64,000 bases of DNA, taken from positions 1 through 64,000 of the forward strand of contig NW_021832836.1 of NCBI RefSeq assembly GCF_006345805.1, written 5' to 3'. The notes beneath the pieces are model-generated. The model made no database searches and was not told where the DNA came from. It was given only the letters and a program-made list of their open reading frames with translations. Both the position numbers and the translations under genes were made by a program. Source of the DNA: Octopus sinensis. Its lineage: Eukaryota. Shown one piece after another: positions 18,410 through 59,629 of this stretch. How positions within the stretch are numbered: the stretch's first letter is position 1; each line of letters starts with the position of its first letter.

Positions 18410-18783
18410 CAAAATATTGTATATGAGTACTTGAGAAACAACAGAAAATTTAGTGATCTCTTAGCTTAATATAAGATAACTGATTGATTAAAAGCTTATA
18501 TTTATCCAAGAGAACACTAAAATCTCAAAAGTTTTCAGGTTAGAAAATGTCAAAATATTGCATAAGTGTACTTGAGAAACAACAATTTAGTGATCTCTTG
18601 ATCACTAATTTTTGTTGTTTCTCAGTACACATATGCAATATTTTGACATTTTCTAACCTGAAAACTTTTGAGATTTTAGTGTTCTCTTGGATAAATATAA
18701 GCTTTTAATCAATCAGTTAACTTATATTTAGCTAAGAGATCACTAAATTTTCTGTTGTTTCTCAATTACACATATACAATATA
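18410..18783. repeat. Fold-back palindrome of satellite DNA (~185-bp arms, 4-nt loop), copy 1
   Basis: ttagtgatc-tctt-gatcactaa is centred at 18596-18599, and 18600-18783 is reverse-complement satellite. Confidence 0.93.
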
Positions 18784-19316
18784 CAGTCAGTAAACCTAAA
18801 ATCACATTTGTTTTTTTACTTTTTTATGCCTATTTGCAACTTTTGTGATTTTTGTGATCTCTTTGGTAAATAAGTTACTGATATTATAGTTATGTAAGAG
18901 ATCATTAAAATTTTAATAGTTTTCAGAAAACAAATGTGTCAATTATTGTAAATAAGCATAAAAAAATGAACAAAATTGCTAATTCAAATTTGTTGAATTT
19001 TAGTACTTATTGCAATATTTTGATACTTTGTTTTCTGAGAACAAATAAGTACTAAAAAGCAACAAATTTGAATTAATAATTCTATTTACTTTTTTATGCT
19101 TCTCTGCTATATTTTGACACATTTTGTTTTCTGAAGAGGATTTTGACTTGAGTGTTATCTTGGCTGCTCAATTAGCAACGTTGTTCGCTTTTTTATGCCT
19201 ATTTGCAAATTTTTGCACATTTTGTTATCTGTTGGATAAATATAATATTATTAGTCAGTTAACTTATATTTTACCACAGAGATTACTGAAATCACAAAAT
19301 CACAAATAAGCCTAAA
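18784..19316 (+). repeat. Ectopic copy of the flanking macro-repeat segment 36991-37528, copy 1
   Basis: cagtcagtaaacctaaaatcacatttg...cacaaataagcctaaa is near-identical to 36991-37528. The ORF track shows nearly the same 61-aa ORF at 19124 and 37336. Confidence 0.93.
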
Positions 19317-19689
19317 TTTAGTGATCTATTAGCTAAATATAAGTTAACTGATTGATAAAAAGCTTATATTTATCCAAGAGAACACAAAATCTCAAAAGTT
19401 TTCAGGTTAGTAAAGGTCAAAATACAGCATATGTGACTTGAAAAAGACAAAAAATTTAGTGATCTCTTAGCTGAATATAAGTTAACTGATGGATAAAAAG
19501 CTTATCCAAGAGAACACTAAAATCTCAAAAGTTTTCAGGTTAGAAAATGTCAAAATACAGCATATGTGTACTTGAAAAACAACAAAAATTTAGTGATCTC
19601 TTAGCTAAATATAAGTTAACTGATTGATAAAAAGCTTATATTTATCCAAGAGAACACTAAAATCTCAAGGTTTTTCACGTTAGAAAATG

Positions 19690-20065
19690 TCAAAATATTG
19701 TATATGAGTACTTGAGAAACAACAGAAAATTTAGTGATCTCTTAGCTTAATATAAGATAACTGATTGATTAAAAGCTTATATTTATCCAAGAGAACACTA
19801 AAATCTCAAAAGTTTTCAGGTTAGAAAATGTCAAAAATTGCATAAGTGTACTTGAGAAACAACAAAAATTTAGTGATCTCTTGATCACTAAATTTTTGTT
19901 GTTTCTCAAGTACACATATGCAATATTTTGACATTTTCTAACCTGAAAACTTTTGAGATTTTAGTGTCTCTTGGATAAATATAAGCTTTTAATCAATCAG
20001 TTAACTTATATTTAGCTAAGAGATCACTAAATTTCTGTTGTTCTCAATTACACATATACAATATA
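19690..20065. repeat. Fold-back palindrome of satellite DNA, copy 2
   Basis: aaatttagtgatc-tctt-gatcactaaattt with loop at 19879-19882, 1283 bp after copy 1. Confidence 0.93.
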
Positions 20066-20595
20066 CAGTCAGTAAACCTAAAATCACATTTGTTTTTTTA
20101 CTTTTTTATGCCTATTTGCAACTTTTGTGATTTTTGTGATCTCTTTGGTAAATATAAGTTAACTGATATTATAGTTATGTAAGAGATCATAAAATTTTAA
20201 TAGTTTTCAGAAAACAAAATGTGTCAAATTATTGTAAATAAGCATAAAAAAATGAACAAAATTGCTAATTCAAATTGTTGAATTAGTACTTATTTGCAAT
20301 ATTTTGATACTGTTTCTGAGAACAAATAAGTACTAAAAAGCAACAAATTTGAATTAATAATCTATTTACTTTTTTATGCTTCTCTGCTATATTTTGACAC
20401 ATTTTGTTTTCTGAGAGGATTTTGACTTGAGTGTTATCTTGGCTGCTCAATTAGCAACGTTGTTCGCTTTTTTATGCCTATTTGCAAATTTTTGCACATT
20501 TTGTTATCTGTTGGATAAATATAATATTATTAGTCAGTTAACTTATATTTTACCACAGAGATTACTGAAATCACAAAATCACAAATAAGCCTAAA
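20066..20595 (+). repeat. Ectopic copy of macro-repeat segment 36991-37528, copy 2
   Basis: Same sequence and same junctions (caatatacagtcag; aagcctaaatttagtg) as 18784-19316. Confidence 0.92.
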
Positions 20596-23500
20596 TTTAG
20601 TGATCTATTAGCTAAATATAAGTTAACTGATTGATAAAAAGCTTATATTTATCCAAGAGAACACTAAAATCTCAAAAGTTTTCAGGTTAGTAAAGGTCAA
20701 AATACAGCATATGTGTACTTGAAAAAGAACAAAAAATTTAGTGATCTCTTAGCTGAATATAAGTTAACTGATGGATAAAAAGCTTATCCAAGAGAACACT
20801 AAAATCTCAAAAGTTTTCAGGTTAGAAAATGTCAAAATACAGCATATGTGTACTTGAAAAACAACAAAAAATTTAGTGATCTCTTAGCTAAATATAAGTT
20901 AACTGATTGATAAAAAGCTTATATTTATCCAAGAGAACACTAAAATCTCAAAGGTTTTCACGTTAGAAAATGTCAAAATACAGCATATGTGTACTTGAAA
21001 AACATCAAAAAATTTAGTGATCTATTATCTAAATATAAGTTAACTGATTGATAAAAAGCTTATATTTATCCAAGAGAACACTAAAATCTCAAAAGTTTTC
21101 AGGTTAGAAAATGTCAAAATATTGCATATGTGTACTTGAAAAACAACAAAAAATTTAGTGATCTCTTAGCTAAATATAAGTTAACTGATTGATAAAAAGA
21201 TTATATTTATCCAAGAGCACACTAAAATCTCAAAAGCTTTCAGGTTAGAAAATGTCAAAATATTGCATATGTGTACTTGAGAAACAACAGAAAATTTAGT
21301 GATCTCTTAGCTTAATATAAGATAACTGATTGATAAAAAGCTTATATTTATCCAAGAGAACACTAAAATCTCAAAAGTTTTCAGGTTAGAAAATGTCAAA
21401 ATACAGCATATGTGTACTTGAAAAACAACAAAAAATTTAGTGATCTCTTAGCTAAATATAAATTAACTGATTGATTAAAAGCTTATATTTATCCAAGAGA
21501 ACACTATAATCTCAAAAGTTTTCAGGTTAGAAAATGTCAAAATATTGCATATGTGTACTTGAAAAACAACAAAAAATTTAGTGATCTATTAGCTACATAT
21601 AAGTTAACTGATTGATAAAAAGCTTATATTTATCCAAGAGAACACTAAAATCTCAAAAGCTTTCAGGTTAGAAAATGTCAAAATATTGCATATGTGTACT
21701 TGAAAAACAACAAAAAATTTAGTGATCTCTTAGCTAAATAAGTTAACTGATTAAATTTAGTGATCTCTTAGCTACATATATGTTAACTGATTGATGAAAA
21801 GCTTATATTATCCAAGAGGACACTAAAATCTCAAAAGTTTTCAGGTTAGAAAATGTCAAAATATTGCATATGTACTTGAAAAACCACAAAAAATTTAGTG
21901 ATCTCTTCACTAATATAAGTTAACTGATTGATAAAAAGCTTATATTTATCCAAGAGAACACTAAACTCTCAAAAGTTTTCAGGTTAGAAAATGTCAAAAT
22001 ATTGCATATGCGTTCTTGAAAACAACAAAAAATTAGTGATCTCTGAGCTATATATGTAACTGATTGATAAAAAGCTTATATATATTCAAGAGAACACTAA
22101 AATCTCAAAAGTTTTCAGGTTACAAAATGTCAAAATATGTGTACTTGAGAAACAACAGAAAATTTAGTGATCTCTTAACTAAATATAATTTAACTGATTG
22201 ATAAAAAGCTTATATTTATCCAAGAGAACACTTAAATCTCAAAAGTTTTCAGGTTAGAAAATGTCAAAATATGTGTCCTTGAAAAACAACAGAAAATTTA
22301 GTGATCTCTTAGCTAGATATAAGTTCACTGATGGATAAAATGCTTATATTTATCCAAGAGAACACTAAAATCTCAAAAGTTTTCAGGTTAGAAAATGTGA
22401 AAATATGTGTACTTGAAAAACAACAGAAAATTTAGTGATCTCTTAGCTAAATATAAGTTAACTGATTGACAAAAAGCTTATATTTTTCCAAGAGATCACT
22501 AATATCTCAAAAGTTTTCAGAATACAAAATGTCAAAATATTGTATATGTGCACTTGAAAAACAACAAAAAATTCTGTGAGCTCCTAGCAAAATATAAGTT
22601 AACTGATTGATAAAAAGCTTATATCCAAGAGAACGCTAAAATCTCAAAGGTTTTCAGGTTAGAAAATGTCAAAATATTGCATATGCGTACCTGAAAACAA
22701 CAAAAAATTTAGTGATCGCTTAGCTAAATATAAGTTAACTGATTGATAAGAAGCTTATATATTCAAGAGAACACTAAAATCTCGAAAGTTTTCAGGTTAC
22801 AAAATGTCAAAATATGTGTACTTGAGAAACAACAGAAAATTTAGTGATCTATTAGCTAAATATAAGTTAACTGATTGATAAAAAGCTTATATTTATCCAA
22901 GAGAACACTAAAATCTCAAAAGTTTTCAGGTTAGTAAAGGTCAAAATACAGCATATGTGTACTTGAAAAAGAACAAAAAATTTAGTGATCCCTTAGCTGA
23001 ATATAAGTTAACTGATGGATAAAAAGCTTATCCAAGAGAACACTAAAATCTCAAAAGTTTTCAGGTTAGAAAATGTCAAAATATTGCATATGTGTACTTG
23101 AAAAACAACAAAAAATTTAGTGATCTCTTAGCTAAATATAAGTTAACTGATTGATTAATAGCTTATATTTATCCAAGAGAACACTAAAATCTCAAAAGTT
23201 TTCAGGTTAGAAAATGTCAAAATATTGCATAAGTGTACTTGAAAAACAACAAAAAATTTAGTGATCTCTTAGCTAAATATAAGATAACTGATTGATAAAA
23301 AGCTTATATTTATCCAAGAGAACACTAAAATCTCAAAGGTTTTCACGTTAGAAAATGTCAAAATACAGCATATGTGTACTTGAAAAACATCAAAAAATTT
23401 AGTGATCTATTATCTAAATATAAGTTAACTGATTGATAAAAAGCTTATATTTATCCAAGAGAACACTATAATCTCAAAAGTTTTCAGGTTAGAAAATGTC

Positions 23501-26500
23501 AAAATATTGCATGTGTACTTGAAAAACAACAAAAAATTTAGTGATCTATTAGCTACATATAAGTTAACTGATTGATAAAAAGCTTATATTTATCCAAGAG
23601 AACATTAAAATCTCAAAAGCTTTCAGGTTAGAAAATGTCAAAATATTGCAAATGCGTACTTGAAATACAACAAAAAATTTAGTGATCTCTTTGCTAAATA
23701 TAAGTTAACTGATTGATAAAAAGCTTATATTTATCCAAGAGATCACTAAAATCTCAAAAGTTTTCAGGTTAGAAAATGTCAAAATACAGCATATGTGTAC
23801 TTGAAAAACAACAACAAATTTAGTGATCTCTTCGCTAAATATAAGTTAACTGATTGATAAAAAGCTTATATTTATCCAAGAGAACACTAAAATCTCAAAA
23901 GCTTTCAGGTTAGAAAATGTCAAAATATTGCATATGTGTACTTGAAAAACAACAAAAAATTTAGTGATCTCTTAGCTAAATATAAGTTAACTGATTGATA
24001 AATTTAGTGATCTCTTAGCTACATATATGTTAACTGATTGATAAAAGCTTATATTTATCCAAGAGGACACTAAAATCTCAAAAGTTTTCAGGTTAGAAAA
24101 TGTCAAAATATTGCATATGTGTACTTGAAAAACAACAAAAAATTTAGTGATCTCTTCACTAAATATAAGTTAACTGATTGATAAAAAGCTTATATTTATC
24201 CAAGAGCACACTAAAATCTCAAAAGCTTTCAGGTTAGAAAATGTCAAAATATTGCATATGTGTACTTGAGAAACAACAGAAAATTTAGTGATCTCTTAGC
24301 TAATATAAGATAACTGATTGATAAAAGCTTATATTTATCCAAGAGAACACTAAATCTCAAAAGTTTTCAGGTTAGAAAATGTCAAAATACAGCATATGTG
24401 TACTTGAAAAACCAAAAAATTTAGTGATCTCTTAGCTAAATATAATTAACTGATTGATTAAAAGCTTATATTTATCCAAGAGAACACTATAATCTCAAAA
24501 GTTTTCAGGTTAGAAAATGTCAAAATATTGCATATGTGTACTTGAAAAACAACAAAAAATTTAGTGATCTCATTAGCTAATATAAGTTAACTGATTGATA
24601 AAAGCTTATATTTATCCAAGAACACTAAAATCTCAAAAGTTTTCAGGTTAGAAAATGTCAAAATATTGCATATGTACTTGAAAAACAACAAAAAATTTAG
24701 TGATCTCTTCTAATATAAGTAACTGATTGATATTTAGTGATCTCTAGCTAACATATATGTTAACTGATTGATAAAAAGCTTATATTTATCCAAGAGAACA
24801 CTAAAATCTCAAAAGTTTTCAGGTTAGAAAATGTCAAAATATTGCATATGTGTACTTGAAAAACAACAAAAAATTTAGTGATCTCTTCACTAAATATAAG
24901 TTAGATTGATAAAAAGCTTATATATATTCAAGAGAACACTAAAATCTCAAAAGTTTTCAGGTTAGAAAATGTCAAAATATTATGTGTACTTGAAAAACAA
25001 CAAAAATTTAGTGATCTCTTAGCAAATAAATAGTTTAACTGATTGATAAAAGCTTATATTTATCCAAGAGAACACTTAAATCTCAAAAGTTTTCAGGTTA
25101 GAAAATGTCAAAATATTGCATATGCGTACTTGAAAAACAACAAAAAATTTAGTGATCTCTTAGCTAAATATAAGTTAACTGATTGATAAAAGCTTATATT
25201 TATCCAAGAGAACACTAAAATCTCAAAGTTTTCAGGTTAGAAATGTCAAAATATTGCATATGTGTACTTGAAAAACAACAAAAATTTAGTGATCTCTTAG
25301 CTAAATATAAGTTAACTGATTGATAAAAAGCTTATATTTATCCAAGAGAACACTAAAATCTCAAAAGTTTCAGGTTAGAAAATGTCAAAATATGTGTACT
25401 TGAAAAACAACAAAAATTTAGTGATCTCTTTATATAAGTTAACTGATTGATAAAAAGCTTATATTTTTCCAAGAGTTCACTAATTTCTCAAAAGTTTTCA
25501 GTAGATAGGAACAAAATCCAAAATTTGTTGTCAAAATATTGTATAGTGCCTTGAAAACACAAAAAATCTTAGAACGCTAAAAGAGATACGCTTAAATCTC
25601 AAAAGTTTTCAGGTTAGAAAATGTCAATATTGCATATGTGTACTTGAAAACACAAAAATTTAGTGATCTCTTAGCTAAATATAAGTTAACTGATTGATAA
25701 GAAGCTTATATAAATTCAAGAGAACACTAAAATCTCAAAAGTTTTCAGTTAGAAAATGTCAAAATATGTGTACTTGAAAAACAACAAAAAATTTAGTGAT
25801 CTCTTAGCTAATATAAGTTAACTGATTGATAAAAAGCTTATATTTATCCAAGAGAACACTAAAATCTCAAAAGTTTTCAGGTTAGAAAATGTCAAAATAC
25901 AGCATATGTGTACTTGAAAAAACAAAAATTTAGTGATCTCTTAGCTAAATATAAGTTAACTGATTGATAAAAAGCTTATATCCAAGAGAACACTAAAATC
26001 TCAAAGTTTTCAGGTTAGAAAATGTCAAAATATTGCATATGTGTACTTGAAAACAACAAAAAATTTAGTGATCTCTAGCTAAATATAAGTTAACTGATTG
26101 ATAAATAGCTTATATTTATATCCAGAGAACACTAAAATCTCAAAGTTTTCAGGTTAGAAAATGTCAAAATATTGCATAGTGTGTACTTGAAAAACAAAAA
26201 AAAATTTAGTGATCTCTTAGCTAATATAAGTTAACTGATTGATAAAAAGCTTATATTTATCCAAGAGAACACTAAAATCTCAAAGTTTTCAGGTTAGAAA
26301 ATGTCAAAATATTGCATGTGTACTTGAAAAACAACAAAAAATTTAGTGATCTTTATCTAAATATAAGTTAACTGATTGATAAAAAGCTTATATTTATCCA
26401 AGAGAACACTAAAATCTCAAAAGTTTTCAGGTTAGAAAATGTCAAAATACACATATGTGTACTTGAAAAACAACAAAAAATTTAGTGATCTCTTAGCTAA

Positions 26501-29500
26501 ATATAATTAACTGATTGATTAAAAGCTTATATTTATCCAAGAGAACACTATAATCTCAAAGTTTTCAGGTTAGAAAATGTCAAAATATTGCATATGTGTA
26601 CTTGAAAAACAACAAAAAATTTAGTGATCTATTAGCTACATATAAGTTAACTGATTGATAAAAAGCTTATATTTATCCAAGAGAACACTAAAATCTCAAA
26701 AGCTTTCAGGTTAGAAAATGTCAAAATATTGCATATGTGTACTTGAAAAACAACAAAAAATTTAGTGATCTCTTAGCTAAATATAAGTTAACTGATTGAT
26801 AAATTTAGTGATCTCTTAGCTACATATATGTTAACTGATTGATAAAAAGCTTATATTTATCCAAGAGGACACTAAAATCTCAAAAGTTTTCAGGTTAGAA
26901 AATGTCAAAATATTGCATATGTGTACTTGAAAAACAACAAAAAATTTAGTGATCTCTTCACTAAATATAAGTTAACTGATTGATAAAAAGCTTATATTTA
27001 TCCAAGAGAACACTAAAATCTCAAAAGTTTTCAGGTTAGAAAATGTCAATATACAGCATATGTGTACTTGAAAAACAACAAAAAATTTAGTGATCTCTTA
27101 GCTAAATATAAGTTAACTGATGGATAAAAAGCTTATCCAAGAGAACACTAAAATCTCAAAAGTTTTCAGGTTAGTAAATGTCAAAATACAGCATATGTGT
27201 ACTTGAAAAACAACAAAAAATTTAGTGATCTATTAGCTAAATATAAGTTAACTGATTGATTAATAGCTTATATTTATCCATGAGAACACTAAAATCTCAA
27301 AAGTTTTCAGGTTAGAAATGTCAAAATATTGCATATGTGTACTTGAAAACAACAAAAAATTTAGTGATCTCTTAGCTAAATATAAGATACCTGATTGATA
27401 AAAAGCTTATAGTTATCCAAGAGAACACTAAAATCTCAAAAGTTTTCAGGTTAAAAATGTCAAAATACAGCATATGTGTACTTGAAAACACAAAAAAATT
27501 TATTGATCTCTCTCGCTAAATATAAGTTTATGATTGATAAAAAGCTTATATTTATCCAAGAGAACACTAAAATCTCAAAAGTTTTCAGGTTAGAAAATGT
27601 CAAAATATTGCATATGTGTACTTGAAAAACAACAAAAAATTTAGTGATCTCTTAGCTAAATATAAGTTAACTGATTGATAAAAAGCTTATATTTATCCAA
27701 GAGAACACTAAAATCTCAAAAGTTTTCAGGTTAGAAAATGTCAAAATATTGCATATGTGTACTTGAAAAACAACAAAAAATTTAGTGATCTCTTAGCTAA
27801 ATATAAGTTAACTGATTGATAAAAGCTTATATTTATCCAAGAGAACACTAAAATCTCAAAAGTTTTCACGTTAGAAAATGTCAAAATACAGCATATGTGT
27901 ACTTGAAAAACATCAAAAAATTTAGTGATCTATTAGCTAAATATAAGTTAACTGATTGATAACACTAAAACCTCAAAAGTTTTCAGGTTAGAAAATGTCA
28001 AAATATTGCATATGTGTACTTGAAAAACAACAAAAAATTTAGTTATATGTTAACTGATTGATAAAAAGCTTATATTTATCCAAGAGAACACTAAAATCTC
28101 AAAAGTTTTCAGGTTAGAAAATGTCAAAATATTGCATATGTGTAATTGAGAAACAACAGAAAATTTAGTGATCTCTTAGCTAAATATAGGTTAACTGATT
28201 GATTAAAAGCTTATATTTATATAAGAGAACACTAAAATCTCAAAAGTTTTCAGGTTATCAAATGTCAAAATATTGCATATGTGTACTTGAGAAACAACAA
28301 AAAATTTAGTGATCTCTTAGCTTAATATAAGATAACCGATTGATAAAAAGCTTATATTTATCCAAGAGAACACTAAAATCTCAAAAGTTTTCAGGTTAGA
28401 AAATGTCAAAATATTGCATATGTGTACTTGAAAACAACAAAATTTAGTGATCTCTTAGCTAAATATAAGATAACTGATTGATAAAAGCTTATATTTATCC
28501 AAGAGAACACTAAAATCTCAAAAGTTTTCAGGTTAGAAAATGTCAAAATATTGCATATGTGTACTTGAAAAACAACAAAAAATTTAGTGATCTCTTCGCT
28601 AAATATAAGTTAACTGATTGATAAAAAGCTTATATTTATCCAAGAGAACACTAAAATCTCAAAAGTTATCAGATTAGTAAATGTCAAAATACAGCATATG
28701 TGTACTTGAAAAAGAACAAAAAATTTAGTGATCTCTTAGCTAAATATACGTTTATTGATTGATAAAAAGCTTATATTTATCCAAGAGAACACTAAAATCT
28801 CAAAAGTTTTCAGGTTAGAAAATGTCAAAATATAGCATATGCGTACTTGAAAAACAACAAAAAATTTAGTGATCACTTAGCTAAATATAAGTTAACTGAT
28901 TGATAAAAAGCTCATATTTATCCAAGAGAACACTAAAATCTCAAAAGTTTTCAGGTTAGAAAATATCAAAATATAGCATATGCGTACTTGAAAAACAACA
29001 AAAAATTTAGTGATCTCTTAGCTGAATATAAGTTAACTGATTGATAAAAAGCTTATATATATCCAAGACAACACTAAAATCTCAAAAGTTTTCAGGTTAG
29101 AAAATGTCAAAATATGTGTACTTGAAAAACAATAGAAAATTCAGTGATCTCTTAGCTAAATATAATTTAACTGATTGATAAAAAGCTTATATTTATCCAA
29201 GAGAACACTAAACTCTCAAAAGTTTTCAGGTTAGAAAATGTCAAAATATTGCATGTGTACTTGAAAAACAACGAATAATTTAGTGATCACTTAGCTAAAT
29301 ATAAGTTAACTGATTGATAAAAAGCTTATATTTATCGAAGAGAACACTAAAATCTCAAAAGTTTTCAGGTTAGAATATGTCAAAATATTGCATATGCGTA
29401 CTTAAAAAACAACAAAAAATTTAGTGATCTCTTAGCTAAATATAAGTTTATTGATTTTTAAAAAGCTTATATTTATCCAAGAGAATACTAAAATCTCAAA

Positions 29501-32500
29501 AGTTTTCAGGTTAGAAAATGTCAAAATATGTGTACTTTAAAAACAACAGAAAATTTAGTGATCTCTTAGCTAAATATAAGTTAACTGATGGATAAAAAGC
29601 TTATATTTATCCAAGAGAACACTAAAATCTCAAAAGTTTTCAGGTTAGTAAATGTCAAAATACAGCATATGTGTACTTGAAAAAGGACAAAATATTTAGT
29701 GATCTCTTAGCTGAATATAAGTTAACTGATTGATAAAAAGCTTATATTTATCCAAGAGAACACTAAAATCTCAAAAGTTTTCAGGTTAGAAAATGTCAAA
29801 ATATTGCATATGCGGACATGAAAAACAACAAAATATTTAATGATCTAAATATATGTGTACTCGAAAAACAACAAAAAATATAGTGATCTCTTAGCTATAT
29901 GTAAGTTAACTGATTGGTAAAAAACTAAAATCTCAAAAGTTTTCAGGTTAGAAAATGTCAAAATATTGCATATGCGTACTTGAAAAACAACAAAAAATTT
30001 AGTGATCTCTGAGCTAAATATATGTTAACTGATTGATAAAAAGCTTATATTTATCCAAGAGAACACTAAACTCTCAAAAGTTTTCAGGTTAGAAAATGTC
30101 AAAATATTGCATATGCGTTCTTGAAAACAACAAAAAATTTAGTGATCTCTGAGCTAAATATATGTTAACTGATTGATAAAAAGCTTATATATATTCAAGA
30201 GAACACTAAAATCTCAAAAGTTTTCAGGTTACAAAATGTCAAAATATGTGTACTTGAGAAACAACAGAAAATTTAGTGATCTCTTAACTAAATATAATTT
30301 AACTGATTGATAAAAAGCTTATATTTATCCAAGAGAACACTTAAATCTCAAAAGTTTTCAGGTTAGAAAATGTCAAAATATTGCATATGCGTACTTGAAA
30401 AACAACAAAAAATTTAGTGATCTCTTAGCTAAGTATAAGTTTATTGATTTTTAAAAAGCTTATATTTATCCAAGAGAACACTAAAATCTCAAAAGTTTTC
30501 AGGTTAGAAAATGTCAAAATATGTGTCCTTGAAAAACAACAGAAAATTTAGTGATCTCTTAGCTAGATATAAGTTAACTGATGGATAAAATGCTTATATT
30601 TATCCAAGAGAACACTAAAATCTCAAAAGTTTTCAGGTTAGAAAATGTGAAAATATGTGTACTTGAAAAACAACAGAAAATTTAGTGATCTCTTAGCTAA
30701 ATATAAGTTAACTGATTGACAAAAAGCTTATATTTTTCCAAGAGATCACTAATATCTCAAAAGTTTTCAGAATACAAAATGTCAAAATATTGTATATGTG
30801 CACTTGAAAAACAACAAAAAATTCTGTGAGCTCCTAGCAAAATATAAGTTAACTGATTGATAAAAGCTTATATCCAAGAGAACGCTAAAATCTCAAAGGT
30901 TTTCAGGTTAGAAAATGTCAAAATATTGCATATGCGTACCTGAAAACAACAAAAAATTTAGTGATCGCTTAGCTAAATATAAGTTAACTGATTGATAAGA
31001 AGCTTATATATATTCAAGAGAACACTAAAATCTCGAAAGTTTTCAGGTTACAAAATGTCAAAATATGTGTACTTGAGAAACAACAGAAAATTTAGTGATC
31101 TATTAGCTAAATATAAGTTAACTGATTGATAAAAAGCTTATATTTATCCAAGAGAACACTAAAATCTCAAAAGTTTTCAGGTTAGTAAATGTCAAAATAC
31201 AGCATATGTGTACTTGAAAAAGAACAAAAAATTTAGTGATCCCTTAGCTGAATATAAGTTAACTGATGGATAAAAAGCTTATCCAAGAGAACACTAAAAT
31301 CTCAAAAGTTTTCAGGTTAGAAAATGTCAAAATATTGCATATGTGTACTTGAAAAACAACAAAAAATTTAGTGATCTATTAGCTAAATATAAGTTAACTG
31401 ATTGATTAATAGCTTATATTTATCCAAGAGAACACTAAAATCTCAAAAGTTTTCAGGTTAGAAAATGTCAAAATATTGCATAAGTGTACTTGAAAAACAA
31501 CAAAAAATTTAGTGATCTCTTAGCTAAATATAAGATAACTGATTGATAAAAAGCTTATATTTATCCAAGAGAACACTAAAATCTCAAAGGTTTTCACGTT
31601 AGAAAATGTCAAATACATGCATATGTGTACTTGAAAAACATCAAAAAATTTAGTGATCTATTATCTAAATATAAGTTAACTGATTGATAAAAAGCTTATA
31701 TTTATCCAAGAGAACACTATAATCTCAAAAGTTTTCAGGTTAGAAAATGTCAAAATATTGCATATGTGTACTTGAAAAACAACAAAAAATTTAGTGATCT
31801 ATTAGCTACATATAAGTTAACTGATTGATAAAAAGCTTATATTTATCCAAGAGAACATTAAAATCTCAAAAGCTTTCAGGTTAGAAAATGTCAAAATATT
31901 GCAAATGCGTACTTGAAATACAACAAAAAATTTAGTGATCTCTTTGCTAAATATAAGTTAACTGATTGATAAAAAGCTTATATTTATCCAAGAGATCACT
32001 AAAATCTCAAAAGTTTTCAGGTTAGAAAATGTCAAAATACAGCATATGTGTACTTGAAAAACAACAACAAATTTAGTGATCTCTTCGCTAAATATAAGTT
32101 AACTGATTGATAAATTTAGTGATCTCTTAGCTACATATATGTTAACTGATTGATAAAAAGCTTATATTTATCCAAGAGGACACTAAAATCTCAAAAGTTT
32201 TCAGGTTAGAAAATGTCAAAATATTGCATATGTGTACTTGAAAAACAACAAAAAATTTAGTGATCTCTTCACTAAATATAAGTTAACTGATTGATAAAAA
32301 GCTTATATTTATCCAAGAGAACACTAAAATCTCAAAAGTTTTCAGGTTAGAAAATGTCAAAATATGTGTCCTTGAAAAACAACAGAAAATTTAGTGATCT
32401 CTTAGCTAGATATAAGTTAACTGATGGATAAAATGCTTATATTTATCCAAGAGAACACTAAAATCTCAAAAGTTTTCAGGTTAGAAAATGTGAAAATATG

Positions 32501-35500
32501 TGTACTTGAAAAAAACAACAAAAATTTAGTGATCTCTTAGCTAAATATAAGTTAACTGATTGACAAAAAGCTTATATTTTTCCAAGAGATCACTAATATC
32601 TCAAAAGTTTTCAGAATACAAAATGTCAAAATATTGTATATGTGCACTTGAAAAACAACAAAAAATTCTGTGAGCTCCTAGCAAAATATAAGTTAACTGA
32701 TTGATAAAAAGCTTATATCCAAGAGAACGCTAAAATCTCAAAGGTTTTCAGGTTAGAAAATGTCAAAATATTGCATATGCGTACCTGAAAACAACAAAAA
32801 ATTTAGTGATCGCTTAGCTAAATATAAGTTAACTGATTGATAAGAAGCTTATATATATTCAAGAGAACACTAAAATCTCGAAAGTTTTCAGGTTACAAAA
32901 TGTCAAAATATGTGTACTTGAGAAACAACAGAAAATTTAGTGATCTATTAGCTAAATATAAGGTAACTGATGATAAAAAGCTTATATTATCCAAGAGAAC
33001 ACTAAAATCTCAAAAGTTTTCAGGTTAGTAAAGGTCAAAATACAGCATATGTGTACTTGAAAAAGAACAAAAAATTTAGTGATCCCTTAGCTGAATATAA
33101 GTTAACTGATGGATAAAAAGCTTATCCAAGAGAACACTAAAATCTCAAAAGTTTTCAGGTTAGAAAATGTCAAAATATTGCATATGTGTACTTGAAAAAC
33201 AACAAAAAATTTAGTGATCTCTTCACTAAATATAAGTTAACTGATTGATAAAAAGCTTATATTTATCCAAGAGAACACTAAAATCTCAAAAGTTTTCAGG
33301 TTAGAAAATGTCAAAATATTGCATATGTGTACTTGAAAAACAACAGAAAATTTAGTGATCTCTTAGCTTAATATAAGATAACTGATTGATAAAAAGCTTA
33401 TATTTATCCAAGAGAACACTAAAATCTCAAAAGTTTTCAGGTTAGAAAATGTCAAAATACAGCATATGTGTACTTGAAAAACAACAAAAAATTTAGTGAT
33501 CTCTTAGCTAAATATAAGTTAACTGATTGATAAAAAGCTTATATTTATCCAAGAGAACACTAAAATCTCAAAAGCTTTCAGGTTAGAAAATGTCAAAATA
33601 TTGCATATGTGTACTTGAAAAACAACAAAAAATTTAGTGATCTCTTAGCTAAATATAAGTTAACTGATTGATAAATTTAGTGATCTCTTAGCTACATATA
33701 TGTTAACTGATTGATAAAAAGCTTATATTTATCCAAGAGGACACTAAAATCTCAAAAGTTTTCAGGTTAGAAAATGTCAAAATATTGCATATGTGTACTT
33801 GAAAAACAACAAAAAATTTAGTGATCTCTTAGCTAAATATAAGTTAACTGATGGATAAAAAGCTTATCCAAGAGAACACTAAAATCTCAAAAGTTTTCAG
33901 GTTAGTAAATGTCAAAATACAGCATATGTGTACTTGAAAAACAACAAAAAATTTAGTGATCTATTAGCTAAATATAAGTTAACTGATTGATTAATAGCTT
34001 ATATTTATCCATGAGAACACTAAAATCTCAAAAGTTTTCAGGTTAGAAAATGTCAAAATATTGCATATGTGTAATTGAAAAACAACAAAAAATTTAGTGA
34101 TCTCTTAGCTAAATATAAGATAACTGATTGATAAAAAGCTTATATATATCCAAGAGAACACTAAAATCTCAAAAGTTTTCAGGTTAGAAAATGTCAAAAT
34201 ATTGCATATGTGTACTTGAAAAACAACAAAAAATTTAGTGATCTCTTAGCTAAATATAAGTTAACTGATTGATAAAAAGCTTATCCAAGAGAACACTAAA
34301 ATCTCAAAAGTTTTCAGGTTAGTAAATGTCAAAATACAGCATATGTGTACTTGAAAAACAACAAAAAATAGTGATCTATTAGCTAAATATAAGTTAACTG
34401 ATTGATTAATAGCTTATATTTATCCATGAGAACACTAAAATCTCAAAAGTTTTCAGGTTAGAAAATGTCAAAATATTGCATATGTGTACTTGAAAAACAA
34501 CAAAAAATTTAGTGATCTCTTAGCTAAATATAAGATACCTGATTGATAAAAAGCTTATAGTTATCCAAGAGAACACTAAAATCTCAAAAGTTTTCAGGTT
34601 AGAAAATGTCAAAATACAGCATATGTGTACTTGAAAAACAACAAAAAATTTAGTGATCTCTCAGCTAAATATAAGTTTATTGATTGATAAAATGCTTATA
34701 TTTATCCAAGAGTACACTAAAATCTCAAAAGTTTTCAGGTTAGAAAATGTCAAAATATTGCATATGTGTACTTGAAAAACAACAAAAAATTTAGTGATCT
34801 CTTCGCTAAATATAAGTTAACTGATTGATAAAAAGCTTATATTTATCCAAGAGAACACTAAAATCTCAAAAGTTTTCAGGTTAGAAAATGTCAAACTACA
34901 GCATATGTGTACTTGAAAAACATCAAAAAATTTAGTGATCTCTTAGCTAAATATAAGATAACTGATTGATAAAAAGCTTATATTTATCCAAGAGAACACT
35001 AAAATCTCAAAAGTTTTCAGGTTAGAAAATGTCAAAATATTGCATATGTGTACTTGAAAAACAACAAAAAATTTAGTGATCTCTTCGCTAAATATAAGTT
35101 AACTGATTGATAAAAAGCTTATATTTATCCAAGAGAACACTAAAATCTCAAAAGCTTTTAGGTTACAAAATGTCAAAATATTGCATATGTGTACTTGAGA
35201 AACAACAGAAAATTTAGTGATCTCTTAGCTAAATATAAGTTAACTGATTGATAAAAAGCTTATATTTATCCAAGAGAACACTAAAATCTCAAAAGCTTTC
35301 AGGTTAGAAAATGTCAAAATATTGCATATGTGTACTTGAAAAACAACAAAAAATTTAGTGATCTCTTAGCTAAATATAAGTTAACTGATTGATAAATTTA
35401 GTGATCTCTTAGCTACATATATGTTAACTGATTGATAAAAAGCTTATATTTATCCAAGAGAACACTAAAATCTCAAAAGTTTTCAGGTTAGAAAATGTCA

Positions 35501-36764
35501 AAATATTGCATATGTGTACTTGAAAAACAACAAAATTTTAGTGATCTCTTCACTAAATATAAGTTAACTGATTGATAAAATGCTTATATTTATCCAAGAG
35601 AACACTAAAATCTCAAAAGCTTTCAGGTTACAAAATGTCAAAATATTGCATATGTGTACTTGAGAAACAACAGAAAATTTAGTGATCTCTTAGCTAAATA
35701 TAAGTTAACTGATTGATAAAAAGCTTATATTTATCCAAGAGAACACTAAAATCTCAAAAGCTGTCAGGTTAGAAAATGTCAAAATATTGCATATGTGTAC
35801 TTGAAAAACAACAAAAAATTTAGTGATCTCTTAGCTAAATATAAGTTAACTGATGGATAAAAAGCTTATCCAAGAGAACACTAAAATCTCAAAAGTTTTC
35901 AGGTTAGAAAATGTCAAAATATTGCATATGTGTACTTGAAAAACAACAAAAAATTTAGTGATCTCTTAGCTACATATAAGTTAACTGATGGATAAAAAGG
36001 TTATATTTATCCAAGAGAACACTAAAATCTCAAAAGTTTTCAGGTTAGAAAATGTCAAAATACAGCATATGTGTACTTGAAAAACAACAAAAAATTTAGT
36101 GATCTCTTAGCTAAATATAAGTTTTTTGATTGATAAAAAGCTTATATTTATCCAAGAGAACACTAAAATCTCAAAAGTTTTCAGGTTAGAAAATGTCAAA
36201 ATATTGCATATGTGTGCTTGAAAAACAACAAAAAATTTAGTGATCTCTTAGCTAAATATAAGTTAACTGACGGATAAAAAGCTTATATTTATCCAAGAGA
36301 ACACTAAAATCTCAAAAGTTTTCAGGTTAGAAAATGTCAAAATATTGCATATGTGTACTTGAAAAAGATCAAAAAATTTAGTTATCTGTTAGCTAAATAT
36401 AAGTTAACTGATTGATAAAAAGCTTATATTTATCCAAGAGAACACTAAAATCCCAAAAGTTTTCAGGTTAGAAAATGTCAAAATATTGCATAAGTGTACT
36501 TGAAAAACAACAAAAAATTTAGTGATCTCTTAGCTAAATATAAGTTAACTGATTGATAAAAAGCTTATATTTATCCAAGAGAACACTAAAATCTCAAAAG
36601 TTTTCAGGTTGGAAAATGTCAAAATATTGCATGTGTGTACTAAAAAAAACAAAAAATTTAGTGATCTCTTAGCTAAATATAAGTTAACTGATTGATAAAA
36701 AGCTTATATTTATCCAAAGGAACACTAAAATCTCAAAAGTTTTCAGGTTAGAAAATATCAAAAA

Positions 36765-39700
36765 GTAAGCATAAAAAAAGAGATCAAAAATTCTAATTCG
36801 CATTTGTTGTTTTTAAGTACTTATTTGTTTTCAGAAAACAAAATATGTCAAAATATTGCAAATAAGCATAAAGAAGTGAATAAAATTGCTAGTTTGAATT
36901 TCTTCTTTTTTGTTTGAAATATTTTGACATTTTGTTTTTTGAAAAGTTTTGATGTTGTAGTGATGTCTTGAATAAAGATAATCTTATTATCAGTCAGTAA
37001 ACCTAAAATCACATTTGTTTTTTTACTTTTTTATGCCTATTTGCAACTTTTGTGATTTTTGTGATCTCTTTGGTAAATATAAGTTAACTGATATTATAGT
37101 TATGGAAGAGATCATTAACATTTTAATAGTTTTCAGAAAACAAAATGTGTCAAATTATTGCAAATAAGCATAAAAAAATGAACAAAATTGCTAATTCAAA
37201 TTTGTTGAATTTTAGTACTTATTTGCAATATTTTGATACTTTGTTTTCTGAGAACAAATAAGTACTAAAAAGCAACAAATTTGAATTAATAATTCTATTT
37301 ACTTTTTATGCTTCTCTGCTATATTTTGACACATTTTGTTTTCTGAAAAGGATTTTGACTTGAGTGTTATCTTGGCTGCTCAATTAGCAACGTTGTTCGC
37401 TTTTTTATGCCTATTTGCAAATTTTTGCACATTTTGTTATCTGTTGGATAAATATAATATTATTAGTCAGTTAACTTATATTTTACCACAGAGATTACTG
37501 AAATCACAAAATCACAAATAAGCCTAAACTTATATTTACCAAAAAGATCACGAAAATCACAAATGTATTCGGAAAACAAACTTTGTGAAAATATTGCAAA
37601 TGAGTAATAAAAAGCAACAAATTTGAATTAGCAATTTTGTTTACTTTCTTACGGTTATTTGCAATATTTTGTCACATTTTGTTATCAGAAATCTTCTGAT
37701 AATATAGTGATTTTTTGGATAAATATAATCTTATTATCAGTCAGTTTACTAATATTTACCAAAGAGATCACTGAAACCACAAAAGTTTTTGGAGAACAAA
37801 ATGTGTCAAAATATTGCAAAATAAGCATAAAAAAGAGATCAAAAATTCTAATTCGCATTTGTTGTTTTTTTCAGAAAACTAAATATGTCAAAATATTGCA
37901 AATAAGCATAAAGAAGTGAATAAAATTGCTAATTTAAATTTCTTCTTTTTTAGTACTTGGTTGCAATATTTTGACATTTTGTTTCTTGAAAAGTTTTGAT
38001 GTTGTAGTGATGTCTTGGATAAAGATAATCAGTAAACCTAAAATCACATTTGTGTTTTTTACTTTTTTATGCTTATTTGTAACTTTTGTGATTTTAGTGA
38101 TCTCTTTGGTAGATATAAGTTAACTGACTGATAATAAGATTATAGTTATCGAAGAGATCATTAAAATATCAAAAGTTTTCAGATAACGAAATGTGTCAAA
38201 ATGTTGCAAATAAGCATAAAAAATGAACAAAATTGCTAATTCAAATTTGTTGATTTTTAGTACTTATTTGCAATATTTTGACACTTTGTTTTCTGAGAAC
38301 AAATAAGTACTAAGGAACAACAAATTTGAATTAACAATTTTGTTCACATTCTTACGGTTATTTGCAATATTTTGTCACAATTTGTTATCAGAAAACTTCT
38401 GATAATGTAGTGATTTTTTGGATAAACATAATCTTATTATCAGTCAGTTTACTAATATTTACCAAAGAGATCACTGAAACCACAAAAGTTTTTGGAGAAC
38501 AAAATGTGTCAAAATATTGCAAAATAAGCATAAAAAAGAGATCAAAAATTCTAATTCGCATTTGTTGTTTATTTCAGAAAACTAAATATGTGAAAATATT
38601 GCAAGACGTGAATAAAATTGCTAATTTAAATTACTTCTTTTTTGTACTTGGTTGCAATATTTTGACATTTTGTTTTTTGAAAAGTTTTGATGTTGTAGTT
38701 ATGTCTTGGATAAAGATAATCTTATTATCAATCAGTAAACCTAAAATCACATTTGTTTTTTTACTTTTTTATGTTTATTTGCAACTTTTGTGATTTTAGT
38801 GATATCTTTGGTAAATATAAGTTAACTGACTGATAATAAGATTACAGTTATCGAAGAGATCATTAAAATATCAAAAGTTTTCAGATAGCGAAATGTGTCA
38901 AAATGTTGCAAATAAGCATAAAAAATGAACAAAATTGCTAATTCAAATTTGTTGATTTTTAGTACTTATTTGCAATATTTTAACACTTTGTTTTCTGAGA
39001 ACAAATAAGTACTAAAAAACAACAAATTTGAATTAACAATTTTATTTAATTTTTCTGCTTGTCTGCAATATTTTGACACATTGTGTTTTCTGAAAATTAT
39101 TGTGACTTGAGTGATCTCTTGGCGGCTCAATTAGAAATTTTGTTCACTTTTTTATGCCTATTTGCTAATTTTGGCACATTTTGTTATCTGTTGGATAAAT
39201 ATAATATTATTAGTCAGTTAACTTATATTTACCACAGAGATTACTGAAAACACAAAATCGCAAATAAGCATAAACTTATATTTACCAAAAAGATCACGGA
39301 AATCACAAATGCATTCGGAAAACAAACTTTGTGAAAATATTGCAAATGAGTAATAAAAAGCCACAAATTTGAATTAGCAATTTTGTTCACTTTCTTACGG
39401 TTACTTGCAATATTTTGTCACATTTTGTTTTTAAGTACTTATTTGTTTTCAGAAAACAAAATATGTCAAAATATTGCAAATAAGCATAAAGAAGTGAATA
39501 AAATTGCTAATTTAAATTTCTTCTTTTTTAGTACTTGGTTGCAATATTTTGACATTTTGTTTTTTGAAAAGTTTTGATGTTGTAGTGATGTCTTGGATAA
39601 AGATAATATTATTATCAGTCAGTAAACCTAAAATCACATTTGGTTTTTGACTTTTTTATGCTTATTTGCAACTTTTGTGATTTTAGTGATCTCTTTGGTA

Positions 39701-41270
39701 AATATAAGTTAACTGACTGATAATAAGATTATAGTTATCGAAGAGATCATTAAAATAACAAAAGTTTTCAGATAACGAAATGTGTCAAAATGTTGCAAAT
39801 AAGCATAAAAAAAGAAAATAAAATTGCTAATTCAAATTTGTTGATTTTTAGTACTTATTTGCCATATTTTGACACTTTGTTTTCTGAGAACAAATAAGTA
39901 CTAAGGAACAACAAATTTGAATTAACAATTTTATTTTCTTTTTAAGCTTGTCTGCAATATTTTGACACATTTTGTTTTCTGAAAATTATTGTGACCTGAG
40001 TGATCTCTTGGCTGCTCAATAAGCAATTTTGTTCACTTTTTTATGCCTATTTGCAAATTTTGGAACATTTTGTTATCTCTTGGATAAATATAATATTATT
40101 AGTCAGTTAACTTATTACTGAAATCACAAAATCGCAAATAAGCATAAACTTATATTTACCAAAAAGATCACGGAAATCACAAATGTATTCAGAAAACAAA
40201 CTTTGTCAAAATATTGCAAATGAGTGATAAAAAGCCACAAATTTGAATTAGCAATTTTGTTCACTTTCTTACGGTTATTTGCAATATTTTGTCACATTTT
40301 GTTATCAGAAAACTTCTGATAATGTAGTGATTCTTTTGATAACTATAATCTTATTACCAGTCAGTTTACTAATATTTACCAAAGAGATCACTGAAACCAC
40401 AAATGTTTTTGGAGAACAAAATGTGTCAAAATATTGCAAAATAAGCATAAAAAAGAGATCAAAAATTCTAATTCACATTTATTGTTTTTAAGTACTTATT
40501 TGTTTTCAGAAAACAAAATATGTCAAAATATTGCAAATAAGCATAAAAAGTGAATAAAATTGCTAATTTAAATTTCTTCTTTTTTAGTACTTGGTTGCAG
40601 TTTTTTGACATTTTGTTTTTTGAAAAGTTTTGATGTTGTAGTGATGTCTTGGATAAAGATAATCTTATTATCAGTCAGTAAACCTAAAATCACATTTGTT
40701 TTTTTACTTCTTTATGCTAATTTGCAACTTTTGTGAATTTAGTGATCTCTTTGGTAAATATAAGTTAACTGACTGATAATAAGATTATAGTTATCGAAGA
40801 GATCATTAAAATATCAAAAGTTTTCAGATAACGAAATGTGTCAAAATGTTGCAAATAAGCATAAAAAAATGAACAAAATTGCTAATTCAAATTTGTTGAT
40901 TTTTAGTACTTATTTGCAATATTTTTACACTTTGTTTTCTGAGAACAAATAAGTACTAAGAAACAACTAATTTGAATTAACAATTTTGTTCACTTTCTTA
41001 CGGTTATTTGCAATATTTTGTCACATTTTGTTATCAGAAAACTTCTGATAATGTAGTGATTTTTTGGATAAACATAATCTTATTATCAGTCAGTTTACTA
41101 ATATTTACCAAAGAGATCACTGAAACCACAAAAGTTTTTGGAGAACAAAATGTGTGAAAATATTGCAAAATAAGCATAAAAAAGAGATCAAAAATTCTAA
41201 TTCGCATTTGTTGTTTTTAAAATATTGTAAATAAGCATAAAGAAGTGAATAAAATTGCTAATTTAACAAT
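36765..41270. repeat. Hairpin-rich tandem macro-repeat (~0.7-1.05 kb unit, 4-5 copies) related to the satellite
   Basis: The marker cagtaaacctaaaatcacatt recurs at ~36995, 38030, 38733, 39620 and 40677. Units contain long inverted repeats such as tcagaaaacaaaatgtgtcaaaatattgcaaataag / cttatttgcaatattttgacactttgttttctga. Confidence 0.9.
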
Positions 41271-43590
41271 TTTGTTCACTTTTTTATGCTTATTTTGACA
41301 CAGTTTTTTCTCTGAAAACGTTCGTGATTTCAGTGATCTCTTTGGTTAACTGATCGATAATAACATTATATATTGACACATTTTGTTTTTTGAAAAATTT
41401 TGAGATTGTAGTTATCTTTTCTGTGAATACAAGTTCACTGATTGATAATAAGAATATATTTACTCAAGGTATCACTGAAACGAAAAGTTTTTAGAAAAGA
41501 AAATGGGTCAAAATATTGCAAATAAGCAGTAAAAAACAACAAATTTGAATCAGCAATTTTATTCACTTTTCCATGCTTATTTGCAATATTTGAAAACATT
41601 TTGTTTTTTGAATACTTATGTAGTTTCAGTGATCTCTTGGTTATTATTAATCAAGTAACTAATATTTACTGATAAGTTATTAGTATGAACAGTTTTTCTT
41701 ATTAAAAATACACGTCACTTATGTGTAAAAGGTACACTAAAAAACGATTTCTTATTTGGAAATTTGTTTAGTTTTTCATGATTTTTTACAATATTTTGTG
41801 AGTTTTCTATGAAATTTTGTGATCACTGTTGCAAATTGAAATATGTTGATTTTTGTGGTATCTATTACACATATGTGACGTATTATTTTTCTAACAAAAA
41901 CTTTTCATATTCTTCAGTAAATGATTCACTGAGATCACTGAAAGGTTTCAGAAAATAAAATGTGTCAAAATATTGCAAATAAGCATAAAAAGGTGAACAA
42001 AATTGCTAATTAAATGTGTTGATTTTTTAGTGCTTATTTGCAATACTTTGACTCATTTTGTTTTCTGAAAACCTTTGAGATTTTAGTGATCAGTTAACTT
42101 ATATTCCCGAAAAAGATATTAATACGAAATGTTTTTCCCAGAAAAATGTCATGTCACCAATATGTACGCAGTATTTTAAAATACAAGAAATCTGAGTTTA
42201 CTTATGAATGCCTTTCCTCCCTTGGACACAAAGACCTGTTGAGGCAAGCGAAGTCGATATAGAACCTCATCCGACGACAGGCACCCATGCCAACCCCCCT
42301 TTGCTTGCGAAGACATGTTGGGGCAAGCGAAATCGAAATCGAAGTCAAAATCGAATTGAACCAGCCAGGATCCCTGGTCTGGTGGTACGTAAAAAGCACT
42401 ATCCGACTCGTGGCCGATGCCAGCGCCGCCTCCACTGGCTTCTGTGCCGGTGGCACGTAAAATACACCAATCTGACCGTACGACAGGCACCCATGCCAAC
42501 CCCCTTGCTTGCGAAGACATGTTGGGGCAAGCGAAATCGAATCGAACCAGCCAGGTTCCCTGGTCTGGTGGCACGTAAAAAGCACTATCCGACTCGTGGC
42601 CGATGCCAGCGCCGCCTCCACTGGCTTCCGTGCCGGTGGCACGTAAAATACACCAATCGGACCGTACAACAGGCACCCATGCCAACCCCTTGCTTGCGAA
42701 GACATGTTGGGGCAAGTGAAATCGAAATCGAAATCGAATTGAACCAGCCAGGATCCCTGGTCTGGTGGTACGTAAAAAGCACCATCCGACTTGTGGCCGA
42801 TGCCAGCACCGCCTCGTCTGGCTTCCGTGCCGGTGGCACATAAAATACACCAATCCGACCGTGGCCGTTGCCAGCCTCGCCTGGCACCTGTGCAGGTGGC
42901 ACATAAAAAGCACCCACTACACTCACGGAGTGGTTGGCGTTAGGAAGGGCATCCAGCTGTAGAAACACTGCCAGATAAGACTGGAGCCTGGTGCAGCCTT
43001 CTGGCTTCCCAGATCCCCGGTCGAACCGTCCAACCCATGCTAGCATGGAGAACAGACGTTAAACGATGATGATGATGATGATGATGATGATATGCTTATT
43101 TTAAATATGTAGCTTTCTATGAGGTTTTATGACTGCAAATTGAAATTTGTTAGTGTAACTTTTTCACATATTTTTCTAAGTAAAACTTTTCAGTAAACAT
43201 TATTTAATAAGATAATATTTACCGAACAGATCAATCAAATAACAAAAGTTTTTAGAAAACTAAATGTCATAAAATATTGCAAATAAGCATAGGAAAGTAA
43301 GCAAAATTGCAAATTCAAATGTGTCGTTTTTAAAATACTTTGTACACATTTGTGACATGACATTTGCAAATTTCTTCTGTTTTTCATGCTATATTTTCAC
43401 ACTTTTTTTCTGTAACAAAAGTGAACAAAATTACTAATTCAAATTTGTTGATTTTTAGTGCTTATTCAATGTTGATCTCAGAAAAATGTCATGTCGCAAA
43501 TGTGTACAAGGTATTTTAAAACACAAATTTAAATTTGCAATTTTGTTTATTTTCCTATGCTTATTTTTTTTCACATTTGTATTCTCCGTA
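41270..43590. repeat. Older, degenerate continuation of the same fold-back repeat, interrupted by a retro-insertion
   Basis: Diverged tcaaaatattgcaaataagc / gcttatttgcaata motifs occur in both orientations. Inverted pair tttaaaatactttgtacacatttgtgacatgacattt (~43329) / aaatgtcatgtcgcaaatgtgtacaaggtattttaaa (~43484). Confidence 0.75.
42207..43090 (+). mobile_element. SINE-like non-autonomous retroposon with internal ~190-200 bp tandem triplication and (GAT)n tail
   Basis: Abrupt GC-rich block in AT-rich DNA. Units start at 42275, 42481 and 42667. The 3' module ggttggcgttaggaagggcatccagctgtagaaac...aacccatgctagcatgga...acgttaaac(gat)n recurs at 47460-47625 and 48880-49035. Confidence 0.85.
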
Positions 43591-44244: not shown

Positions 44245-44290
44245 CCCTAACCCTAAAACCGTAACCTTAACCTTAACCCTAAAACCGTAA
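44245..44290. repeat. Short degenerate (CCCTAA)n-like tract
   Basis: ccctaaccctaaaaccgtaaccttaaccttaaccctaaaaccgtaa. Confidence 0.7.

Positions 44291-49537: not shown

Positions 49538-59628
<10,091 letters not shown>

Positions 59629-59629
<1 letters not shown>

What the first reader, a model, noticed from the sequence alone, without database searches (positions are those of the whole stretch)
36400..43590. Apparent birth of a satellite: the 141-bp monomer is a sub-module of the adjacent fold-back macro-repeat
Seen: the flank contains the monomer's hairpin and downstream part in diverged form (ttttagtgatctctttggtaaatataagttaactgactgataataagattatagttatcgaagagatcattaaaatatcaaaagttttcagataacgaaatgtgtcaaaatgttgca, e.g. 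~39681-39797). The reverse complement of its second hairpin arm (tgtcaaaatattgcaaataagtactaaaaatcaacaaatt) matches the monomer's last third (tgtcaaaatattgcatatgtgtacttgaaaaacaacaaaaaattt). The array joins the flank in register at a caaaa microhomology (~36764). There is a gradient from degenerate mixed-orientation modules (41.3-43.6 kb) to a ~1-kb tandem unit (36.8-41.3 kb) to the homogeneous 141-mer. Inference: a Foldback/MITE-like or palindromic ancestor seeded the satellite at this locus. The direction of derivation is inferred.
Basis: partly seen in the sequence, partly recalled or inferred. Interest (0 to 1): 0.7.

Follow-up and report, generated by a model that had tools for sequence, protein, structure and literature searches.

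The report
Satellite born from halved DNA palindrome
A 141-base tandem repeat matches a scattered 219-base mirror-symmetric repeat with one arm missing; it likely arose that way elsewhere in the genome and likely re-entered a cluster of its parent here, so this window likely records a satellite's spread rather than its birth.

Summary
The homology is real (score 155; 100 shuffles at most 39). The flank is a scrambled cluster of a ~219-bp imperfect palindrome ('U'), found as 71 near-full units in 19 clusters genome-wide. The 141-mer is U minus its ~75-bp left arm.

Palindrome-to-satellite polarity is favoured, not proven (9:3 informative columns; AU p=0.22).

Birth at this locus is not supported:
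- U units on other scaffolds are closer to the monomer (89-91%) than the flank is (78-87%).
- The array carries a near-private variant and sits at the derived end of a ladder of subfamilies.
- Its edge monomers show no gradient.
- Flank plus local array as one clade is rejected (p=0.009), though flank plus all satellites is not (p=0.14).

An overlapping contig shows a ~62-kb array inside a U cluster, flanked on both sides; arrays meet U clusters at two other places. After arrival the array folded back and copied 540 bp of flank (98% identical) into itself.

No shared termini, TSD or transposase were found, so Foldback/MITE membership is unshown. The scan has noted other satellite births in this genome (likely an octopus), none for this family.

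The parts
1..36763 (+). 141-bp satellite array, youngest subfamily found (GAACAC variant). It continues into overlapping contig C1317; whole array about 62 kb.
18600..18783 (-). Fold-back inversion of about 1.3 monomers, starting at the hairpin TTAGTGATC-TCTT-GATCACTAA
18784..19316 (+). Piece of flank captured inside the array, 98.0% identical to 36991-37528 (next-best unit 88.7%)
19883..20595 (.). Second copy of the fold-back plus captured-flank module (tandem duplicate, period about 1.28 kb), 97.2% identical to 36991-37528
36760..36768 (+). Array/flank junction at a shared CAAAA, 10 bp off the homologous register
36764..41300 (.). Higher-order tandem cluster (about 5 units of 0.7-1.06 kb, 85-95% alike) built from mixed-orientation copies of the ~219-bp palindrome U
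36991..37528 (+). Donor of the captured piece (the flank unit nearest the array)
41300..42206 (.). More degenerate U modules. 41409-41543 has the monomer's arm order but only 78% identity.
42207..43091 (+). Unrelated very high-copy insertion (186-bp internal repeats, (GAT)n tail). It looks like a retroposon 3' end (label recalled, not tested).
43092..43590 (.). Degenerate U-type tail of the cluster

Best explanation
The 141-bp monomer is a ~219-bp imperfect palindrome (U) minus its left arm; it likely arose by one deletion in a U tandem elsewhere in the genome, and a late, derived form of it likely inserted by homology into the U cluster at this locus. Shown: U is dispersed and folds into a ~100-bp stem; the monomer keeps only U's central ~74-bp hairpin and right arm; the arrays form a nested series of subfamilies with this one most derived; the array has U cluster on both sides; a piece of flank was later copied into the array behind a fold-back. 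Inferred: the direction U to satellite. Inferred: losing one arm removed the long stem, so arrays stay head-to-tail and homogenise while U clusters flip and scramble. Inferred: arrival was by homology- or microhomology-directed repair (an excised circle or long gene conversion). Inferred: the captured piece records hairpin-primed synthesis followed by two template switches.
For: U: 71 non-overlapping near-full units (kept from 350 hits) in 19 clusters; fold z=-12.2. The monomer aligns to U positions 73 onward. Closest U units: C23 cluster 90-91% and C19 89-90% over about 130 columns, against 86-87% over 116 columns or 78-79% over 132-133 in the flank. Ladder: C23/C27/C29 arrays keep parent states d1, d2 and d4 (C23 and C27 also d6); other arrays have mostly lost them; GAACAC:GATCAC is 179:12 here, 183:9 in C1317 and 4:990 in the other 15 array stretches. 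Short-read contigs carry the non-local T in about 78-80% of depth at 36583. With the mirror arm as outgroup, the monomer is derived at 9 columns against 3; the satellite nests among right arms with C18, C9924 and C23 units (91/86, inside 92/92), and the window flank lies outside. Local array plus flank modules as one clade is rejected, p=0.009. C1317:47.7-65.9 kb is collinear with window 0.3-19.1 kb at 95-98%, and C1317's left flank is 86.8% identical to the right flank over 1021 nt. Arrays also meet U at C9626 (in register) and C9924 (same spacer, with a 185-bp satellite between). Orientation: 2 of 1858 monomer hits are inverted, against 7 of 16 multi-unit U clusters mixed.
Against: The alignments are only 90-137 columns. 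All satellites plus flank modules as one clade is not rejected (p=0.14). U right arms excluding the satellite is not rejected (p=0.22), and left-arm monophyly has only 55/29 support. The mirror-arm test can be biased by conversion between arms; the 9 columns are about 6 events; the U consensus was seeded from C19. The 'intermediates' conflict: C18 has the deletion junction with the old spacer, while a C9924 unit has the new spacer with the old junction, so some may be back-recombinants and the birthplace is not fixed. No empty (array-free) allele was seen. The inverted piece is not best matched by its immediate neighbour (4th of 221 windows for one copy, not in the top 6 for the other). Orientation calls in decayed palindromes are noisy. 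Genome searches score only about 40 candidates each, so loci are a lower bound.
Confidence: 0.65

Rival explanations
1. One reading: the satellite was born in this U cluster long ago, spread from here, and the array was later overwritten to both edges by a newer variant.
For: The array lies inside a U cluster. The right junction is near register. One degenerate module (41409-41543) has the monomer's arm order. All satellites plus flank modules as one clade is not rejected, p=0.14.
Against: No old-type monomer at either edge. The flank has 2 derived against 86 parent-type motif matches and none of the 141-type junction. Closer U units lie elsewhere. Arrays also meet other U subfamilies, whose best matches to this flank are only 67-71% identical.
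Confidence: 0.15
2. Reverse direction: a 141-like repeat came first, an ancient fold-back made the palindrome U, and both lineages persisted.
For: Fold-back does happen in this array. Arm-to-arm identity (87.8%) is close to satellite-to-right-arm identity (88.6-90.9%), and the AU test does not exclude it (p=0.22). Concerted evolution hides a satellite's age.
Against: The satellite nests inside right-arm diversity in the best tree. Parent states decay stepwise along the subfamily ladder. U copies are more dispersed and diverged (74-96% to consensus among the rows shown).
Confidence: 0.12
3. The flank is the decayed, rearranged edge of this array.
For: It is adjacent and joined near register.
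Against: The flank holds a ~75-bp arm that the monomer lacks and that 19 clusters share. It lacks the array's derived motifs. AU p=0.009. The change is a step, not a gradient.
Confidence: 0.03
4. U clusters are arms or internal repeats of a real Foldback, MITE or Helentron element that carries the arrays around, as in Tetris.
For: U is a long hairpin dispersed over many scaffolds, and arrays sit within U clusters.
Against: No shared termini among 23 clusters and no TSD at the approximate ends. None of 149 nearby open frames hits a DNA transposase or Helitron family. The outer left and right flanks here match in both orientations at 67-85%, with no terminal inverted pair.
Confidence: 0.15

Closest known systems
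Xstir tandem repeats from a Xenopus MITE; Angel MITE (as summarised in PMC12628747, passages read; original papers not read)
   Same: Tandem arrays derive from internal parts of an inverted-repeat, stem-loop-forming element. Element, array and composite forms coexist.
   Different: There the parent is a defined MITE. Here no ends or TSD were found; the parent is itself a short tandem palindrome, and the monomer is exactly the unit minus one arm.
Tetris / TIR-220 of Drosophila virilis (PMC4079207; abstract and Discussion part 1 of 2 read)
   Same: A modular fold-back-shaped repeat supplies the building block, and arrays are found inside it.
   Different: Tetris has complete copies with TIRs and 8-10-bp TSDs, and TIR-220 pre-exists as an internal repeat amplified in place. 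Here the monomer needs a deletion and the local array appears to be an immigrant.
Rsp-like invading 1.688 clusters in D. simulans and D. mauritiana (PMC7403614; passages read)
   Same: A younger satellite enters clusters of an older repeat at microhomologies; eccDNA, conversion, FoSTeS and MMBIR are discussed as routes.
   Different: Rsp-like and 1.688 are unrelated in sequence. Here the invader is the likely daughter of the host repeat (78-91% alike). The synteny test used there could not be run here.

Membership tests
Satellite DNA | Long head-to-tail array of similar monomers | tested here: met
   36.8 kb in the window, about 62 kb with C1317; monomers 96% to consensus; 2 of 1858 hits inverted
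Satellite DNA | Locus-specific homogenisation (subfamilies) | tested here: met
   GAACAC 179:12 here against 4:990 in 15 other array stretches; C23 consensus 92% identical to this one
Satellite DNA | Heterochromatic or centromeric location | not testable with these tools
   No cytology or chromatin data
Foldback transposon (FB, Tetris) | Fold-back (hairpin-forming), internally repetitive sequence | tested here: met
   U folds at -53.1 kcal/mol, z=-12.2; the flank matches itself on both strands
Foldback transposon (FB, Tetris) | Long terminal inverted repeats with ends shared between copies | tested here: not met
   No shared ends among 23 clusters (approximate borders); no inverted terminal pair at this locus
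Foldback transposon (FB, Tetris) | 8-10-bp target-site duplication | tested here: inconclusive
   None seen by eye at approximate borders of old, decayed clusters
Foldback transposon (FB, Tetris) | Associated transposase or autonomous partner | tested here: inconclusive
   18 of 149 frames of 110 aa or more from 26 loci hit Pfam, mostly reverse-transcriptase, RNase H or integrase relics; none a DNA transposase. The whole genome was not searched.
MITE | Short unit-length copies with fixed ends | tested here: not met
   Cluster lengths run from about 0.15 to 24 kb and start and stop at different unit positions
Helitron/Helentron central repeat | Conserved terminal modules around a variable internal array | tested here: not met
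   All-against-all comparison of 800-bp flanks shows only scattered matches to other repeats

The most novel reading that the evidence does not exclude
Losing one arm is a switch that turns a fold-back-prone palindromic tandem repeat into a stable, amplifiable satellite. The daughter then spreads by homing into clusters of its own parent and re-captures parental sequence by hairpin-primed template switching. One genome holds the whole cycle: parent, mixed clusters, three old subfamilies, young subfamilies and re-invasion.
Probability: 0.35. Interest if true: 0.6.

Novelty: new variant of a known kind. Interest (0 to 1): 0.38.

Why it matters
How satellite monomers originate, and how arrays reach new loci, are open questions that usually lack preserved intermediates. 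This family offers a parent unit, a one-step structural change, a stepwise subfamily ladder and a datable capture event. It makes a simple idea testable: that removing a long stem is what lets an array homogenise. It is also a caution: a satellite lying beside its ancestor need not have been born there. No function is shown.

Tried and rejected
Decayed edge: rejected.

TIR/TSD and transposase searches were negative. Rfam gave 0 matches in 36-45 kb. The 12 stop-to-stop frames of 90 aa or more in 36.4-49.5 kb lie mostly in repeats and were not scanned.

The idea that the inverted piece copies its immediate upstream neighbour was not shown. Pairing C9626 with C12644 as two ends of one array was not shown, since C51 matches equally (93.5% against 93.4%).

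Sister-species test: seven of 24 listed runs were laid. The labels are coded, and X15 has flank contigs with 0-2 differences, so these may be the same or a very close species. X17 (27 and 2 reads), X18 (12 reads, several with C23-type alleles) and X13 (120 records) are too sparse to read. Summed contig depths (3-4 x 10^5 on the array against 7-37 on listed flank contigs in X15) suggest high abundance but are not copy numbers.

Literature searches listed no paper on this repeat; subscription papers and supplements were not seen. Look-ups of earlier scan notes by sequence and by place found nothing on this family.

Full report
Setting. The window is the first 64 kb of an 82-kb contig (C9307) in a 2.72-Gb genome. 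Earlier scan notes call the animal a likely octopus; that matches my recall of its repeats but was not tested. Bases 1-36763 are a 141-bp array.

Observation. Monomer-like pieces occur on both strands through the flank, far above chance: score 155, against a maximum of 39 in 100 shuffles. The junction uses a shared CAAAA but is 10 bp off register. The '1-kb unit' is 0.7-1.06 kb, about five copies, 85-95% alike. There is no gradient: the last six scored monomers are 96.4-99.2% identical to consensus, and the array is flat along its length. About 885 bp of the distal flank is an unrelated insertion.

The parent unit. Searches of the genome found flank-type sequence on many scaffolds (about 40 candidates scored each, so a lower bound). 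At C19 it is two clean head-to-tail units of about 219 bp. A profile search of the fetched clusters gave 350 hits, 109 of at least 165 columns, and 71 non-overlapping units in 19 clusters (output partly cut). The unit U is an imperfect palindrome: arms 87.8% alike over 90 columns, fold z=-12.2. The monomer aligns to U from position 73 on, so it lacks the left arm; a monomer dimer folds mainly the central hairpin (z=-4.8). U also seeded other tandem arrays, with periods of about 1.34 kb (C26), 1.42 kb (C12) and 0.38-0.44 kb (C14).

Direction. With the mirror arm as outgroup, this array's consensus is derived at 9 columns and U at 3; for the other five subfamily consensuses the counts are 8-12 against 2-4. 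In a 69-row tree of arms, the seven satellite consensuses nest among right arms with units from C18, C9924 and C23 (91/86, inside 92/92). But left-arm monophyly is weak (55/29) and the alternative is not rejected (p=0.22). Single 141-type junctions occur inside U clusters at C23 (two) and C18 (one); a fourth loose match at C20 looks spurious. These could be precursors or back-recombinants. The direction is favoured, not proven.

Not born here. Among 321 U-derived hits aligned to the monomer, the best are at C23 (90-91%) and C19 (89-90%); the flank reaches 86-87% over 116 columns and 78-79% over 132-133 (output partly cut). Seventeen array stretches form a ladder. C23, C27 and C29 have the deletion junction and three derived motifs but keep parent states at others. 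C12644 and C9626 are intermediate. This locus alone has GAACAC (179:12, and 183:9 in C1317, against 4:990 elsewhere). The flank shows 2 derived against 86 parent-type motif matches. A tree of 39 of the 321 hits (at least 112 columns, at least 78% identity, forward loop) plus 44 sampled monomers groups all monomers with two C23 units (97/87). Local monomers plus the flank's forward modules is rejected (p=0.009); all monomers plus those modules is not (p=0.14). Both edges are fully derived.

Architecture. C1317:47.7-65.9 kb is collinear with window 0.3-19.1 kb at 95-98% and shares two private inserts, so it is the same or an allelic array. Its start abuts U modules 86.8% identical to the right flank over 1021 nt, joined out of register at a short A-run. 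The array (about 62 kb) therefore interrupts a pre-existing higher-order U cluster. An array end joins U in register at C9626. At C9924 (same arrangement in C12644 and C12456) U stops, and the array starts, in the same spacer with a 185-bp satellite between. Other ends do not touch U: C23 (mixed cluster 8.6 kb away), and C25, C51 and C17b, which start beside a 15-bp minisatellite. The ends at C27, C29 and C5838 were not fully examined. The U flanks of this locus and of C9924 match at only 67-71%, which argues against a recent segmental duplication.

Traffic after arrival. At 18600 and 19883 the array turns back at TTAGTGATC-TCTT-GATCACTAA, runs about 180 bp inverted, switches to flank sequence and returns to the array. 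The captured 540 bp are 98.0% and 97.2% identical to 36991-37528, against 88.7% and 87.6% to the next unit. The module is also in C1317, which argues against a read artefact, and short-read contigs match the flank with 0-2 differences. This shows copying from flank into array in the recent past. Hairpin-primed synthesis with template switching is my inference.

Stability. Of 1858 monomer hits, 2 are inverted, both in that event; 7 of 16 multi-unit U clusters are mixed. This fits, but does not prove, the idea that arm loss stabilises the array.

Comparison. It works like Xstir and Tetris for origin and like Rsp-like for spread. It fails the tested Foldback and MITE end criteria and has no transposase nearby, so it is not filed in those families. 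Five literature searches listed no description of this repeat.

Verdict. A new variant of a known route; interest 0.38.

Noticed in passing
window 9489-9762: A 274-bp GC-rich insert in the array. It is a piece of a dispersed element with internal tandem repeats (93-99% copies on many scaffolds) and is also present twice in C1317.
   Followed up: partly
G000:C1317:37140-58125: A roughly 13-kb internal duplication of the array (both copies match window 2.8-10.8 kb at 97-98%), which explains the doubled GC-rich insert.
   Followed up: partly
L039:4929-5375 (C19): An isolated U cluster of two units whose first and last ~13 bases are the same unit position, as expected of an integrated circle; a single example.
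   Followed up: no
L041, L068, L069 (C26:11732877-11756743); L085 (C12); L083 and L100 (C14): Other tandem arrays built from U modules, with periods of about 1.34 kb (24 kb long), 1.42 kb and 0.38-0.44 kb.
   Followed up: partly
window 49539-59629: A roughly 10-kb degenerate (TA)n tract.
   Followed up: no
window 44240-44291; L038; L067: Telomere-like AACCCT runs lie near several U clusters. Some arrays and clusters (C25, C29, C17b, C12) lie within 0.4 Mb of scaffold ends, which may be subtelomeric or a scaffolding effect.
   Followed up: no
L044-L046 (C17:52748875-52763235): 141-mer blocks alternate with about 450 bp of a 15-bp GAATTACCTGCCCCT minisatellite, forming a composite higher-order unit.
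   Followed up: partly
window 48441-48888: A 26-bp GC-rich minisatellite of about 17 copies.
   Followed up: no
L058-L059 (C9924:33138-39687): A 185-bp satellite in two opposite-orientation blocks interleaved with U clusters.
   Followed up: no
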